Shown here: positions 27,001 to 36,000 of the stretch, piece by piece | Numbering within the stretch: position 1 is the stretch's first letter | How the letters are laid out: each line of letters starts with the position of its first letter | NCBI RefSeq assembly: GCF_054482525.1 | Contig: NZ_CM137006.1 | DNA length: 64,000 nt | Reading direction: 5' to 3' (one strand) | Position numbers: made by a program

Positions 27001-30000
27001 TGATGTCCCATGTGGCACCGGAAATTGAGTGGACGGTTCGCGTGATCTCCGCACTGCTGTTGCTGGGTGTTCTGGCGGAAATCGCTTCCTGGATTGTTGG
27101 CCCTTCTCGCGGTATGTATGTGACTGCGCAGAAAAACCTGCTACCCGCTGCGTTCGCCAAAATGAATAAAAATGGCGTGCCAGTAACGCTGGTTATTTCT
27201 CAGTTGGTAATTACTTCCATCGCGTTGATTATCCTCACCAATACTGGTGGTGGTAACAACATGTCCTTCCTGATCGCACTGGCGCTGACGGTGGTGATTT
27301 ATCTGTGTGCTTATTTCATGCTGTTTATTGGCTACATTGTGTTGGTTCTTAAACATCCTGACTTAAAACGCACATTTAATATCCCTGGTGGTAAAGGGGT
27401 GAAACTGGTCGTGGCTGTTGTCGGTCTGCTGACTTCAATTATGGCGTTTATTGTTTCCTTCCTGCCGCCGGATAACATCCAGGGTGACTCTACCGATATG
27501 TATGTTGAATTACTGGTCGTTAGTTTCCTGGTGGTACTTGCCCTGCCCTTTATTCTCTATGCTGTTCATGATCGTAAAGGCAAAGCGAATACCGGCGTCA
27601 CTCTGGAGCCAATCAACAGTAAGAACGCACCAAAAGGTCACTTCTTCCTGCACCCGCGTGCACGTTCACCACACTATATTGTGATGAATGACAAGAAACA
27701 CTAACCGTGGCTGAATGGTTATAAGACAAGGGAGCGATAATTCATCGCTCCCTTTTTCGTGCTCGCTGTCGTATTGACTTAACCGGGATAAGTACGAGAA
27801 TGAGCGCACATCTGTTTACCGGAAACCAGCATATATGGATATCTGCTCCCGAAACGAGAAATTAGCGATTAGAAGACCAGCGGTACTGGTTGCACTGGCA
27901 CTTTTACTGTGTAGTTGCAAAAGCACGCCTCCAGAGTCAATGGTGACACCACCAACAGGTTCGAAGCCACCAGCTACGACGCAACAATCGTCACAACCGA
28001 TGCGTGGCATCTGGCTGGCTACGGTGTCTCGCCTCGACTGGCCACCGGTTTCCTCGGTTAACATTAGTAACCCCACCAGCCGGGCCCGTGTACAACAACA
28101 GGCGATGATCGACAAACTGGATCATCTGCAACGTCTCGGCATAAACACGGTCTTTTTCCAGGTCAAGCCGGACGGTACCGCCCTGTGGCCATCGAAAATT
28201 TTGCCGTGGTCCGATCTTATGACCGGAAAGATTGGTGAAAATCCAGGTTACGATCCGCTGCAATTTATGCTCGACGAAGCCCACAAGCGTGGGATGAAAG
28301 TACACGCCTGGTTTAACCCCTATCGCGTATCGGTTAATACGAAGCCCGGTACTATCAGGGAACTGAATAGCACTCTGTCTCAACAACCAGCGAGCGTCTA
28401 TGTGCAACACCGCGACTGGATCAGAACGTCCGGCGATCGCTTTGTCCTCGACCCGGGCATCCCTGAAGTTCAGGACTGGATCACATCAATAGTCGCGGAA
28501 GTGGTTTCCCGCTATCCGGTAGATGGCGTGCAGTTTGACGACTATTTCTATACTGAGTCACCAGGTTCACGGCTAAATGATAACGAAACGTACCGCAAAT
28601 ACGGAGGCGCATTTGCGTCAAAAGCAGACTGGCGGCGCAACAATACTCAGCAGTTAATTGCGAAGGTATCGCACACCATTAAAAGCATTAAGCCGGAAGT
28701 CGAATTTGGCGTTAGCCCGGCAGGCGTGTGGCGTAACCGATCACACGATCCGCTCGGTTCCGATACCCGAGGCGCGGCAGCCTATGACGAATCCTATGCT
28801 GACACCCGTCGATGGGTGGAACAAGGATTGCTGGATTACATTGCTCCCCAAATTTACTGGCCGTTCTCACGGAGTGCCGCGCGTTATGACGTGTTGGCAA
28901 AATGGTGGGCGGATGTCGTTAAACCGACCAGGACCCGCCTGTATATCGGTATCGCCTTCTATAAAGTGGGTGAACCTTCAAAGATAGAGCCAGACTGGAT
29001 GATTAACGGCGGCGTACCGGAACTGAAAAAACAGCTCGATCTTAACGATGCCGTGCCAGAAATTAGCGGCACAATCTTGTTCCGTGAGGACTATCTGAAT
29101 AAACCGCAGACTCAACAAGCGGTTAGCTATCTGCAAAGTCGTTGGGGCAGTTAAACTCCCATTCTTACTTTGTAACAAGCCGGTGCTTTCCCCCCGGCTT
29201 GTAACCCTCTTGAAATATCCCACTAGTAATCATGCTTACTTAAGTCAAATTAACTACGCAATTAACCACACTTAGTTAAACAGTCATAAATCCCCTAATA
29301 AAAATGTATGAATATGAAAAAACATACGATATTCGCTGTCACCGAAAAATAATTACGATGGGCTATACTCTTCTGAAGAACAGTAGCGTAGATTGAAACT
29401 GTCCTAAGTCGCTTATTTGTTTTCAGTATATCTTCATATTTCAGGAGAATATGGTGCAGTTAGTCGATCTCGCACGTTGCGTTTCGTTTTGATTCCGTCT
29501 GCTTTCCCAGCCTTATAAGGGTGTGAATTATGGAGATGTATTTTAAAAGAATGAAAGATGAGTGGACCGGGCTTGTCGAACAAGCAGATCCGCTCATTCG
29601 TGCTAAAGCCGCGGAAATTGCCGTTGCGCATGCCCATTATCTGAGTATTGAGTTTTACCGAATTGTCCGTATCGACCCGCATGCCGAAGAATTCTTGAGT
29701 AATGAACAAGTTGAGCGGCAGTTGAAAAGTGCGATGGAACGCTGGATTATTAACGTGCTTTCTGCCCAGGTTGACGATGTCGAAAGGCTAATACAAATCC
29801 AGCATACCGTCGCGGAAGTGCATGCCCGCATAGGAATTCCGGTAGAAATTGTCGAGATGGGGTTTCGGGTGCTGAAAAAAATCCTCTATCCGGTCATCTT
29901 CTCTTCGGATTATTCCGCCGCAGAAAAACTTCAGGTCTACCATTTCTCTATTAACAGTATTGATATCGCTATGGAAGTGATGACCCGCGCGTTTACCTTT

Positions 30001-33000: not shown

Positions 33001-36000
33001 GATATGGGCGTGGGTTTATCGGTAGATGATTTTGGTACGGGCTTTTCCGGATTATCCCGCTTAGTCAGTCTTCCGGTAACGGAAATCAAAATTGACAAAA
33101 GTTTTGTCGATCGTTGTCTGACCGAAAAACGCATCCTTGCCTTACTTGAAGCCATTACCAGCATTGGGCAAAGCCTCAATTTAACCGTCGTGGCGGAAGG
33201 CGTCGAAACCAAAGAGCAATTTGAGATGCTACGCAAGATCCATTGTCGCGTTATTCAGGGATATTTCTTTTCCCGCCCCCTGCCCGCCGAAGAAATTCCA
33301 GGCTGGATGAGCAGTGTGTTACCGCTGAAAATCTGACAAATTCCTCTCGCCCGCACTCGCGGGTTTTCATTTAACGTGACACTGTCACTTAAATACTGTG
33401 ATTTCAGCTACGATTTCGGGAGATTCCTTCCTTAACTTCCACTCTTGCACCAAAACTGCACTACGCTGCACAAATGTTGATCAAAAGTTAAAAAATATAA
33501 CTTTAAGCCAGCATTCTGGCGCTTATCCCGGTATGGCATGAGATCTGCATAAGCGGAAAGCGCAGCAATTTTTGTCTTATACAGGAACCGTTTATGTCGG
33601 ATACCACCGAACTGGTTGATTTAGCCGTGATCTTCCCTGATCTGGAGATCGAATTGAAATACGCCTGCGCTGATAACATCACAGGTAAAGCTATTTATCA
33701 GCAAGCGCGTTGTCTGTTACACAAGGATGCGATTACTGCGCTGGCGAAAAGTATCAGTATCGCCCAGCTGTCAGGCTTACAACTGGTTATTTACGATGCG
33801 TATCGCCCACAACAAGCACAGGCGATGTTGTGGCAAACCTGCCCAGACCCGCAATATGTTGTTGATGTGACGGTCGGTTCTAATCACAGCCGTGGCACGG
33901 CGATCGACCTGACGCTTCGTGATGAGCACGGGAACATCCTGGATATGGGTGCAGAGTTCGATGAAATGCACGAACGTTCCCATGCTTATCACCCTTCCGT
34001 CCCGCCCGCTGCTCAGCGCAATCGGCTGTTGCTGAATGCGATTATGACTGGCGGTGGCTTTGTCGGTATCCCGAGCGAATGGTGGCACTTCGAATTACCC
34101 CAGGCAGCGAGTTACCCACTACTCGCTGATCAATTCACCTGTTTTATATCCCCTGGCACACAGCACGCCAGTTAATCAGGAAACTGTCATGAAGAGATCG
34201 ATTTCGTTTCGTCCTACATTGCTCGCCATCGTCCTTGCCACAACAATGCCGGTTGCGCACGCCGCCGTACCGAAAGATATGCTGGTGATCGGTAAAGCTG
34301 CCGATCCACAAACCCTCGACCCGGCGGTGACAATTGATAATAACGACTGGACGGTGACCTACCCGTCTTATCAGCGACTGGTTCAGTACAAAACGGACGG
34401 TGATAAAGGCTCAACCGACGTTGAAGGCGATCTGGCAAGTAGCTGGAAAGCGTCTGACGATCAAAAAGAGTGGACGTTCACCCTGAAGAACAATGCTAAA
34501 TTTGCCGATGGCGCACCTGTCACTGCCGAAGCAGTAAAACTCTCTTTTGAGCGGTTACTAAAAATCGGCCAGGGGCCAGCAGAAGCATTTCCCAAAGATT
34601 TAAAGATTGATGCTCCCGACGAACATACGGTGAAGTTTACCCTTAGCCAGCCATTCGCACCGTTCCTCTATACGCTGGCGAATGACGGTGCATCCATTAT
34701 CAATCCGGCGGTCTTAAAGGAGCATGCGGCGGATGATGCCCGTGGTTTCCTCGCGCAAAATACCGCTGGCTCCGGACCGTTTATGCTGAAAAGCTGGCAA
34801 AAAGGTCAGCAATTAGTTCTGGTGCCAAATCCGCATTACCCCGGCAATAAACCGAACTTCAAACGGGTATCGGTAAAAATTATCGGTGAAAGTGCCTCCC
34901 GTCGCCTGCAGCTCTCCCGTGGCGACATTGACATTGCCGATGCGCTGCCGGTGGATCAACTCAACGCACTGAAGCAGGAAAACAAAGTCAACGTGGCAGA
35001 GTATCCGTCACTGCGCGTCACCTATCTGTATCTGAATAACAGCAAAGCGCCACTTAATCAGGCGGATCTGCGTCGGGCCATTTCCTGGTCTACCGATTAT
35101 CAGGGAATGGTTAACGGCATTCTGAGTGGTAACGGAAAACAAATGCGCGGCCCGATTCCGGAAGGCATGTGGGGATACGATGCGACGGCAATGCAATACA
35201 ACCATGACGAAACGAAAGCCAAAGCCGAATGGGATAAAGTGACGAGCAAACCCACCAGCCTGACGTTTCTCTACTCCGATAACGACCCGAACTGGGAACC
35301 GATCGCTCTGGCGACACAATCCAGTCTCAACAAGCTGGGCATCAATGTGAAGCTGGAAAAACTGGCGAACGCCACCATGCGCGACAGAGTGGGTAAAGGT
35401 GATTACGACATTGCGATTGGCAACTGGAGTCCGGATTTTGCCGACCCGTATATGTTTATGAATTACTGGTTTGAGTCAGACAAAAAAGGTCTGCCGGGTA
35501 ACCGCTCGTTCTATGAAAACAGTGAGGTCGATAAGTTACTGCGCAATGCGCTAGCGACCACCGACCAGACGCAGCGTACCCGGGACTACCAGCAGGCACA
35601 GAAAATCGTCATTGATGACGCTGCTTATGTGTACCTGTTCCAGAAAAACTACCAACTGGCGATGAACAAAGAGGTGAAAGGCTTTGTGTTCAATCCCATG
35701 CTGGAACAGGTCTTCAATATCAATACCATGAGTAAATAACGTGACCTTCTGGAGTATTTTACGCCAACGCTGCTGGGGGCTGGTGCTCGTGGTGGCGGGC
35801 GTCTGTGTGATTACGTTTATTATCTCGCACCTGATCCCCGGCGATCCGGCGCGGTTACTGGCGGGTGACCGCGCCAGCGATGCTATCGTGGATAATATTC
35901 GCCAGCAACTGGGACTGGACCAGCCACTGTACGTACAGTTTTACCGCTACGTCAGCGACCTGTTTCAGGGTGACCTGGGAACATCCATTCGTACCGGGCG

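What the first reader, a model, noticed from the sequence alone, without database searches (positions are those of the whole stretch)
29530..33336. dosC-dosP oxygen-sensing c-di-GMP pair
A globin-coupled cyclase with an intact GGDEF motif is followed by a PAS-GGDEF-EAL phosphodiesterase. The 25-bp gap between the dosC stop and the dosP start suggests a single transcription unit.
Basis: partly seen in the sequence, partly recalled or inferred. Interest (0 to 1): 0.25.

Follow-up and report, generated by a model that had tools for sequence, protein, structure and literature searches.

The report
E. coli dosC-dosP oxygen-sensing operon
This is the well-studied Escherichia coli dosC-dosP (dgcO-pdeO) operon, an intact haem-based oxygen-sensing pair that makes and breaks the second messenger c-di-GMP; it is ordinary and already known.

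Summary
Window 29530-30912 (+) encodes a 460-aa globin / DosC-middle-domain / GGDEF protein. Window 30937-33336 (+) encodes a 799-aa haem-PAS / PAS / degenerate-GGDEF / EAL protein. The stretch is 100% identical in DNA to annotated dosC-dosP of E. coli SCU-102, 19KM1776 and PCN033, and 98.2% identical to K-12.

All functionally defining residues are kept. In DosC these are Tyr43, Leu65, His98 and GGDEF 374-378. In DosP (807-aa numbering) they are His77, Met95, Arg97, EAL 584-586 and the full set of EAL metal and substrate motifs. The DosP GGDEF domain carries EGTQF, as in the K-12 protein.

Two corrections are small. The intercistronic gap is 24 nt, not 25, and it is itself an in-frame extension of the dosP ORF back to an ATG abutting the dosC stop. 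This is the historical 807-aa form. DosP also has two PAS domains.

No terminator-like site lies in the gap. A hairpin with a T-run follows dosP. Published work states that the two genes form one RpoS-dependent operon.

Verdict: already known, interest very low.

The parts
29172..29205 (+). Hairpin just after the upstream gene digH (yddW), whose stop is at 29154. It probably marks the end of the preceding transcription unit.
   Evidence: RNA fold of 29165-29215 gives a 12-pair stem-loop at -15.5 kcal/mol. It has no T-run, so the terminator scan did not list it. Its function is inferred.
29363..29369 (+). Candidate -10 element CTATACT in the 375-bp, 41% GC region upstream of dosC. It is a possible RpoS-type promoter and is inference only.
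   Evidence: Motif located. This part of the upstream region is identical to K-12. The sigma-70 scan found no promoter-like site upstream of dosC. RpoS dependence of the operon is from the literature (PMC5635695). The resemblance to the sigma-S -10 consensus rests on my own knowledge. No transcription start was mapped here.
29530..30912 (+). dosC (dgcO, yddV) coding sequence: 460 aa plus a TAG stop.
   Evidence: ORF. RefSeq annotation of the identical locus. Pfam. Matches to DosC PDB chains 4zva, 4zvb, 4zvc and 4zve. Two substitutions relative to K-12, P22L and I200V.
29605..29994 (+). DosC sensor globin (protoglobin) domain, aa 26-155. It holds distal Tyr43 and Leu65 and proximal His98 (codon 29821-29823).
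   Evidence: PF11563, 41.4 bits against a cut-off of 25. Y43, L65, H98, F42, A68 and M69 are present. Residue roles are from PMC5549716, except Leu65, whose role rests on my own recollection of the DosC literature.
30067..30396 (+). DosC middle (CZB-like) domain, aa 180-289, with His223 and Lys224.
   Evidence: PF21118, 167 bits. H223 and K224 are present and are required for cyclase activity according to PMC5549716.
30418..30885 (+). DosC GGDEF diguanylate cyclase domain, aa 297-452. The active-site GGDEF is at aa 374-378 (nt 30649-30663). An RxxD (RSSD, aa 365-368) lies five residues upstream.
   Evidence: PF00990, 173 bits. This stretch is 100% identical to PDB 4zve. Motif positions.
30913..30936 (+). 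24-nt intercistronic stretch with the Shine-Dalgarno-like GAGGT (30928-30932) four nt before the dosP ATG. It is also an in-frame 8-codon extension (MRQDAEVI) from an ATG abutting the dosC stop, giving the historical 807-aa DosP.
   Evidence: Sequence. It is identical in K-12 and in the dosC-deleted allele. The 8 extra residues and the historical numbering are described in PMC11543664.
30937..33336 (+). dosP (pdeO, yddU) coding sequence: 799 aa plus a TGA stop.
   Evidence: RefSeq annotation. NCBIfam equivalog NF008467, 1643 bits, aligned over the full length. Matches to full-length DosP structures 9cdr and 9bgv. Five substitutions relative to K-12.
31009..31308 (+). DosP haem-binding PAS domain. 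It holds His77 (31141-31143), Met95 (31195-31197) and Arg97, in 807-aa numbering.
   Evidence: PAS_9 and PAS hits. Matches to the haem-PAS structures 1v9y and 1s66. Residues verified. Their roles are from PMC11543664.
31360..31695 (+). DosP second PAS (PAS-PAC) domain, which has no cofactor.
   Evidence: PAS_4 hit at aa 142-253. The description as cofactor-less is from PMC11543664.
32068..32511 (+). DosP silent GGDEF-fold domain, with EGTQF in place of GGDEF.
   Evidence: PF00990, 77.7 bits. EGTQF lies at 459-463 in 807-aa numbering and there is no GGDEF-like motif elsewhere in the protein. Called a 'silent cyclase domain' in PMC11543664.
32575..33279 (+). [quoted passage not shown]
   Evidence: PF00563, 234.6 bits. 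Motifs EALAR 584, NLS 643, EITE 675, DDFGTGFS 705, KIDKSF 726, EGVE 762 and QGY 782 are all present. Match to the EAL-domain structure 4hu3.
33349..33374 (+). Intrinsic-terminator-like hairpin (GCCCGCACTCGCGGGT) followed by a T-rich tail, starting 13 nt after the dosP stop. It is the probable end of the operon.
   Evidence: Terminator scan. The fold of 33337-33380 contains this stem; the minimum free energy of the whole fold, which also includes a second small hairpin, is -11.4 kcal/mol. The scan's total count (7) is not above its shuffle expectation (5.1), so position, not the count, is the argument.

Best explanation
The region is the intact Escherichia coli dosCP (dgcO-pdeO, formerly yddV-yddU) operon.

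DosC binds haem in an N-terminal sensor globin, with proximal His98 and distal Tyr43. Through a helical middle domain, the globin controls a C-terminal GGDEF domain that makes c-di-GMP from two GTP.

DosP binds haem in its first PAS domain. The unliganded haem is His77-Fe-Met95 coordinated. O2 displaces Met95 and is held by Arg97. The signal passes through a second PAS domain and a catalytically silent GGDEF-fold domain (EGTQF) to the C-terminal EAL domain, which hydrolyses c-di-GMP to pGpG.

The two genes are transcribed together from a stationary-phase (RpoS-dependent) promoter upstream of dosC. The proteins are reported to associate with each other and with RNase E and PNPase, so that oxygen sets a local c-di-GMP level.

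Shown here: gene identity, domain architecture, integrity of all key residues, gap size, and the terminator-like site after dosP. Taken from the literature on K-12: enzymology, co-transcription, RpoS control and degradosome association. Inferred: that the same holds in this strain, whose proteins differ from K-12 at 2 and 5 positions.
For: Pfam architectures are all above the curated cut-offs.

NCBIfam DosP equivalog NF008467 scores 1643 bits against a cut-off of 857, aligned over the full length.

DNA identity is 100% over 4541 bp to loci annotated digH-dosC-dosP-ddpX in SCU-102, 19KM1776 and PCN033. It is 98.2% to K-12, with an identical 24-nt gap.

Codon changes relative to K-12 are 25 synonymous to 2 non-synonymous in dosC and 37 to 5 in dosP, which indicates purifying selection.

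Near-identity to solved DosC domains (4zva, 4zvb, 4zvc, 4zve) and full-length DosP (9cdr, 9bgv) is shown.

Key residues are present. The residue roles, the EGTQF silent domain, the dosCP operon and the 807-aa numbering are in PMC11543664. DosC residues are in PMC5549716. The operon and the degradosome association are in PMC8846402. The operon and RpoS or stationary-phase induction are in PMC5635695.

There is no terminator-like site in the gap, and a terminator-like site lies 13 nt after dosP.
Against: Nothing found argues against the identification.

Caveats:
- Co-transcription, the promoter and protein activity were not measured for this strain.
- The sigma-70 consensus scan found no promoter upstream of dosC, which is expected for an RpoS promoter but leaves the promoter unlocated.
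- The papers read disagree on the direction of O2 control of DosC. PMC11543664 says the unliganded form makes c-di-GMP. PMC8846402 says O2 binding activates it.
- Which dosP start codon (30913 or 30937) is used in vivo is not settled here.
Confidence: 0.97

Rival explanations
1. The two genes are adjacent but expressed independently, with dosP having its own promoter inside the 3' part of dosC.
For: One sigma-70-like match lies inside dosC at 30611-30639 (ATGACA-17-TATGTT, 9 of 12). About 21% of complete E. coli genomes keep an intact dosP while most of dosC is deleted.
Against: The promoter scan found fewer sites (3) than expected from shuffles (6.7), so the internal match carries no weight. 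In the dosC-deleted allele the dosC upstream region (window 28900-29488) is retained and fused to the dosC 3' remnant and dosP, so dosP can still be driven from the dosC promoter. The gap is 24 nt with no terminator-like site. Three papers state that the genes form one operon.
Confidence: 0.05
2. The pair is decaying or inactive in this strain, as dosC is in many other E. coli.
For: dosC is frequently absent or truncated in E. coli isolates (PMC5635171; 1153 of 5407 genomes with a match have under 80% coverage).
Against: Both ORFs are full length and collinear with K-12, with no frameshift or premature stop. There are only 2 and 5 amino-acid changes, none at haem-ligand or catalytic positions, and synonymous changes dominate.
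Confidence: 0.02
3. DosP is a bifunctional cyclase and phosphodiesterase, because it has both GGDEF and EAL domains.
For: The Pfam GGDEF domain hit is above the cut-off (77.7 bits).
Against: The signature motif is EGTQF, and no GGDEF-like motif exists in the protein. The structural paper describes this domain as a silent cyclase domain.
Confidence: 0.01

Closest known systems
E. coli K-12 DosC/DosP (DgcO/PdeO; yddV-yddU; UniProt P76129 for DosP)
   Same: Same genes, same order and neighbours (gadC-digH-dosC-dosP-ddpX), and an identical 24-nt intercistronic stretch. DNA identity is 98.2%. All haem-ligand and catalytic residues are identical.
   Different: DosC carries P22L and I200V. DosP carries V124I, A319T, I321V, L509V and Y526F (807-aa numbering). 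There is a 12-bp insertion plus a few point differences in the dosC upstream region. None touches a known functional residue.
dosC-deleted allele found in about a fifth of complete E. coli genomes (e.g. strain EC12, NZ_CP070229.1)
   Same: Same upstream region, same 24-nt junction and an intact dosP at 98% identity.
   Different: That allele lacks window 29489-30170 and 30218-30747. This leaves only a 165-nt dosC 3' pseudogene remnant, and the ddp operon downstream is absent. The window carries the complete pair.
Bordetella pertussis BpeGReg and other globin-coupled diguanylate cyclases
   Same: Same globin / middle / GGDEF architecture and the same conserved distal-pocket and middle-domain residues (PMC5549716). 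PDB globin-coupled sensors match at E = 1e-13 to 1e-18.
   Different: They are distant in sequence. BpeGReg is said to pair with an HD-GYP rather than an EAL phosphodiesterase.
FixL haem-PAS oxygen sensors and Acetobacter xylinum AxPDEA1
   Same: The haem-binding PAS fold of the DosP N-terminus matches FixL structures at E = 1e-10 to 1e-12. AxPDEA1 is also a haem-PAS c-di-GMP phosphodiesterase (PMC8846402 table).
   Different: FixL outputs through a histidine kinase. In AxPDEA1, O2 inhibits rather than activates the enzyme.

Membership tests
DosC / DgcO (globin-coupled diguanylate cyclase of E. coli) | N-terminal sensor globin with proximal His98 and distal Tyr43 (with Leu65, Phe42 and Met69 in the pocket) | tested here: met
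   Protoglobin PF11563 above the cut-off. All named residues are present. The globin stretch differs from PDB 4zva and 4zvb at one position, residue 22.
DosC / DgcO (globin-coupled diguanylate cyclase of E. coli) | DosC-specific middle domain with His223 and Lys224 | tested here: met
   PF21118 DosC_2nd, 167 bits against a cut-off of 31. H223 and K224 are present.
DosC / DgcO (globin-coupled diguanylate cyclase of E. coli) | Catalytic GGDEF domain with an intact GG[DE]EF motif | tested here: met
   PF00990, 173 bits. GGDEF at 374-378. The domain is 100% identical to PDB 4zve.
DosC / DgcO (globin-coupled diguanylate cyclase of E. coli) | Haem binding and O2-responsive c-di-GMP synthesis | not testable with these tools
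   Biochemical property. It is inferred from 458 of 460 identical residues with the characterised K-12 protein.
DosP / PdeO (haem-PAS c-di-GMP phosphodiesterase) | Full-length match to the curated equivalog model | tested here: met
   NF008467, 1643 bits against a cut-off of 857, protein residues 1-799 aligned to profile positions 1-800 of 800.
DosP / PdeO (haem-PAS c-di-GMP phosphodiesterase) | Haem-PAS domain with His77 proximal ligand, Met95 distal ligand and Arg97 for O2 stabilisation | tested here: met
   All three are present at the expected positions in 807-aa numbering. Match to PDB 1v9y and 1s66. Roles per PMC11543664.
DosP / PdeO (haem-PAS c-di-GMP phosphodiesterase) | Active-type EAL domain: EALxR, N, ExxE, DDFGTG, KxD, EGVE and QG motifs | tested here: met
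   PF00563, 234.6 bits. All motifs found at 584, 643, 675, 705, 726, 762 and 782. The list of motifs that define active EAL domains rests on my own knowledge of the EAL literature.
DosP / PdeO (haem-PAS c-di-GMP phosphodiesterase) | Silent GGDEF-fold domain (EGTQF) | tested here: met
   EGTQF at 459-463, the same as in the reference protein.
dosCP operon (single transcription unit) | Same strand, short gap, no terminator between the genes, a terminator after the second gene | tested here: met
   24-nt gap. No terminator-like site in or next to the gap, and a terminator-like hairpin at 33349-33364.
dosCP operon (single transcription unit) | One mRNA spanning both genes; RpoS-dependent promoter upstream of dosC | not testable with these tools
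   Stated for K-12 in PMC11543664, PMC8846402 and PMC5635695. The primary papers (PubMed ids 19764732 and 16418169) are not held. The candidate -10 CTATACT at 29363 is only a motif match.

The most novel reading that the evidence does not exclude
The 24-nt 'gap' may not be a gap. DosP could be translated, at least in part, from the ATG at 30913 that directly abuts the dosC TAG stop (TAGATG). Termination-reinitiation coupling would then yield an 807-aa isoform alongside the annotated 799-aa one, and the coupling would fix the DosC:DosP ratio. The ORF is open from 30913 and the 24 nt are invariant in the three alleles compared. The GAGGT Shine-Dalgarno-like site, however, serves the 30937 start, and no such site precedes 30913.
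Probability: 0.1. Interest if true: 0.1.

Novelty: already known. Interest (0 to 1): 0.04.

Why it matters
It matters little as a discovery. The dosCP pair is one of the best-characterised oxygen-sensing c-di-GMP modules, with crystal and cryo-EM structures and a long biochemical literature.

The useful result is negative. The finding is correctly identified, intact and ordinary in this strain, so it needs no further attention. It tells us only that this E. coli lineage keeps the complete cyclase and phosphodiesterase pair. About one fifth of sequenced complete E. coli genomes keep the phosphodiesterase alone.

Tried and rejected
- The sigma-70 promoter scan of 29000-33700 found nothing upstream of dosC. 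Overall it found fewer hits (3) than shuffles give (6.7), so it says nothing about the promoter.
- The Rfam scan of the whole window found no RNA family in or near the region. The only hit was the SECIS element in fdnG.
- The primary papers on the operon, Tuckerman et al. 2009 (PubMed 19764732) and Mendez-Ortiz et al. 2006 (PubMed 16418169), are not held. I used secondary statements from three held papers instead.
- Antisense ORFs overlapping the genes (for example 29434-29709, 30279-30572 and 31954-32343 on the minus strand) were treated as chance ORFs. They lie opposite strongly supported coding sequence and no evidence supports them.
- I considered and rejected the idea that the weak terminator-like site at 30959-30974, inside the 5' end of dosP, separates the genes. 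It has only 3 G-C pairs, it lies within the coding sequence, and the scan total is at chance level.
- I did not run the large protein or metagenome searches or structure prediction. Identical or near-identical solved structures already exist.
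Full report
**Observation**

Listing ORFs in 27000-36000 shows two long same-strand ORFs at the stated place: 29530-30912 (460 aa) and 30913-33336 (807 aa as a mechanical ORF).

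The dosC stop is TAG at 30910-30912. The next 24 nt are ATGCGCCAGGATGCAGAGGTAATC, and an ATG follows at 30937. RefSeq annotation of the identical DNA in strain SCU-102 places dosC at the equivalent of 29530-30912 and dosP at 30937-33336, a 799-aa product.

The gap is 24 nt rather than 25. The gap is also an in-frame extension of the dosP ORF back to an ATG that abuts the dosC stop.

**Identity**

The 4541 bp from 29100 to 33640 are 100% identical to chromosomal loci annotated digH-dosC-dosP-ddpX in E. coli SCU-102, 19KM1776 and PCN033. 5413 of 5426 complete E. coli genomes hold a match.

Against a K-12 strain, the 3807 bp of the two genes are 98.2% identical and collinear, without indels. Codon changes are 25 synonymous to 2 non-synonymous in dosC and 37 to 5 in dosP, and the 24-nt junction is identical.

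The surrounding order is gadB-gadC-digH-dosC-dosP-ddpX-ddpABCDF, as at the K-12 locus.

**Domains and residues**

Pfam gives three domains for protein 1:
- Protoglobin, aa 26-155
- The DosC-specific middle domain PF21118, aa 180-289, 167 bits
- GGDEF, aa 297-452, 173 bits

Pfam gives four regions for protein 2:
- A first PAS region, aa 25-124
- A second PAS region, aa 142-253
- GGDEF, aa 378-525, 78 bits
- EAL, aa 547-781, 235 bits

The NCBIfam DosP equivalog NF008467 matches end to end at 1643 bits against a cut-off of 857. NCBIfam returned no DosC-specific equivalog; only generic or other cyclase models appeared, all below their own cut-offs. DosC membership therefore rests on three things: the Pfam DosC middle domain, the DNA identity, and near-identity to the solved DosC domain structures 4zva, 4zvb, 4zvc and 4zve.

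DosP matches the full-length cryo-EM entries 9cdr and 9bgv, the EAL-domain entry 4hu3 and the haem-PAS entries 1v9y and 1s66.

Residues in DosC:
- Phe42, Tyr43, Leu65, Ala68, Met69 and His98 in the globin
- His223 and Lys224 in the middle domain
- RSSD at 365-368 and GGDEF at 374-378 in the cyclase domain

PMC5549716 gives His98 as the proximal haem ligand. It gives Tyr43 as the distal residue that stabilises O2, and His223, Lys224 and each GGDEF residue as required for activity.

Residues in DosP, in the historical 807-aa numbering:
- His77, Met95 and Arg97
- EALAR at 584, NLS at 643, EITE at 675, DDFGTGFS at 705, KIDKSF at 726, EGVE at 762 and QGY at 782
- EGTQF at 459 in the GGDEF-fold domain, with no GGDEF-like motif anywhere in the protein

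PMC11543664 describes the His-Fe-Met coordination, the displacement of Met95 by ligand, the hydrogen bond from Arg97 to O2, and the 'silent cyclase domain ... with EGTQF'. It also describes the eight extra N-terminal residues MRQDAEVI that define the historical numbering.

The substitutions relative to K-12 are DosC P22L and I200V, and DosP V124I, A319T, I321V, L509V and Y526F. None falls on these positions.

**Transcription unit**

Within the sequence, the gap is 24 nt and carries GAGGT four nt before the 30937 ATG. No terminator-like site lies in or next to it. A hairpin with a T-run (GCCCGCACTCGCGGGT then TTTCATTT) begins 13 nt after the dosP stop and forms in the predicted fold of that stretch. 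A 12-pair hairpin follows the upstream gene digH.

The terminator scan as a whole is at chance level (7 found, 5.1 expected). The promoter scan is below chance (3 found, 6.7 expected). So only the positions are suggestive.

No sigma-70-like promoter was found upstream of dosC. A CTATACT at 29363-29369 resembles an RpoS-type -10 element, which is my own reading, and it was not tested further.

Three held papers state that the genes form one operon. One of them adds that both proteins are induced in stationary phase, in line with RpoS control.

A natural deletion allele bears on this point. In strain EC12 the dosC upstream region is retained up to 42 nt before the start codon and is fused to a short internal piece, then to the last 165 nt of dosC and an intact dosP. 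That is what one expects if dosP depends on the dosC promoter. This step is inference.

**Mechanism**

The mechanism is taken from the literature and applied here by near-identity. DosC makes c-di-GMP under control of its haem globin. DosP degrades c-di-GMP to pGpG when O2 binds its haem-PAS domain. Together they are proposed to act as a push-pull pair in a complex with RNase E and PNPase.

The two reviews of the field that I read differ on one point: whether the unliganded form or the O2-bound form of DosC is the active cyclase. That is an open question in the literature, not in this sequence.

**Comparison and novelty**

This is the known dosCP (dgcO-pdeO) operon, in an allele already present in public genomes. 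Nothing about the window's copy departs from the reference beyond neutral-looking polymorphism. Novelty: already known. Interest: very low.

The most novel reading not excluded is that translation starts at the ATG abutting the dosC stop, giving the 807-aa form by translational coupling. I give it about 10% and little interest.

**Other things seen**

- Roughly 21% of complete E. coli genomes with a match (1153 of 5407) carry less than 80% of the pair. Most sampled cases are the dosC-deleted, dosP-intact allele. This agrees with published remarks that DosC is frequently absent.
- The window is 99.97% identical to SCU-102 from 2582 onward but differs before that. Window 1 to about 2581 carries the end of a filamentous-phage-like element, with a Zot-domain protein and a secretin-domain ORF. 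This junction is rare in E. coli.
- A gene cluster absent from the K-12 order as I recall it lies between ddpF and osmC.
- The only Rfam hit in the window is the SECIS element of fdnG.

Noticed in passing
window 1-2581: The left end of the window carries the end of a filamentous-phage-like element: a Zot-domain gene cut by the window edge, a secretin-N-domain ORF at 230-1588 (+), and small ORFs. It sits next to a fimA-type fimbrial cluster. Here the window departs from the otherwise 99.97%-identical SCU-102 genome, which has a hipBA remnant and an ISNCY fragment instead. Only 4 of 5426 complete E. coli genomes cover at least 80% of window 1-4000.
   Followed up: partly
other genomes, e.g. L003 (NZ_CP070229.1) 2415-5714; corresponds to window 29489-30747: About 21% of complete E. 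coli genomes with a match (1153 of 5407) lack most of dosC. In the one such allele I examined, window 29489-30170 and 30218-30747 are deleted, while the dosC upstream region, a 165-nt 3' remnant and an intact dosP are kept; eight other sampled genomes show the same match pattern. In that strain the ddp operon is also missing and osmC follows dosP. Frequent absence of DosC is already noted in the literature (PMC5635171).
   Followed up: partly
window about 39573-46339: Between ddpF and osmC lies a divergent LysR regulator plus six genes: CoA-transferase subunits A and B, acetyl-CoA acetyltransferase, 3-hydroxyacyl-CoA dehydrogenase, a GntP-family permease and 3-hydroxybutyrate dehydrogenase. 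I do not recall these at this position in K-12. The coordinates are mapped from the SCU-102 annotation. The window has a 12-nt in-frame length difference from SCU-102 inside the LysR gene, near 40306.
   Followed up: no
window 55034-55092 (-): A SECIS_3 element (84 bits) is the only Rfam gathering-level hit in the window. It lies in fdnG at the expected selenocysteine codon region.
   Followed up: partly
window about 29254-29265: There is a 12-bp insertion relative to K-12 in the dosC upstream intergenic region. It creates a short direct repeat of AATTAAC, and a few point differences lie nearby. The proximal 270 bp before dosC are nearly identical to K-12.
   Followed up: no
window about 57000-60900: By mapping from the SCU-102 annotation, this stretch holds an intact porin gene annotated ompC next to yddG, a leucine-rich-repeat protein gene and a second, truncated LRR pseudogene. 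It was not examined further.
   Followed up: no
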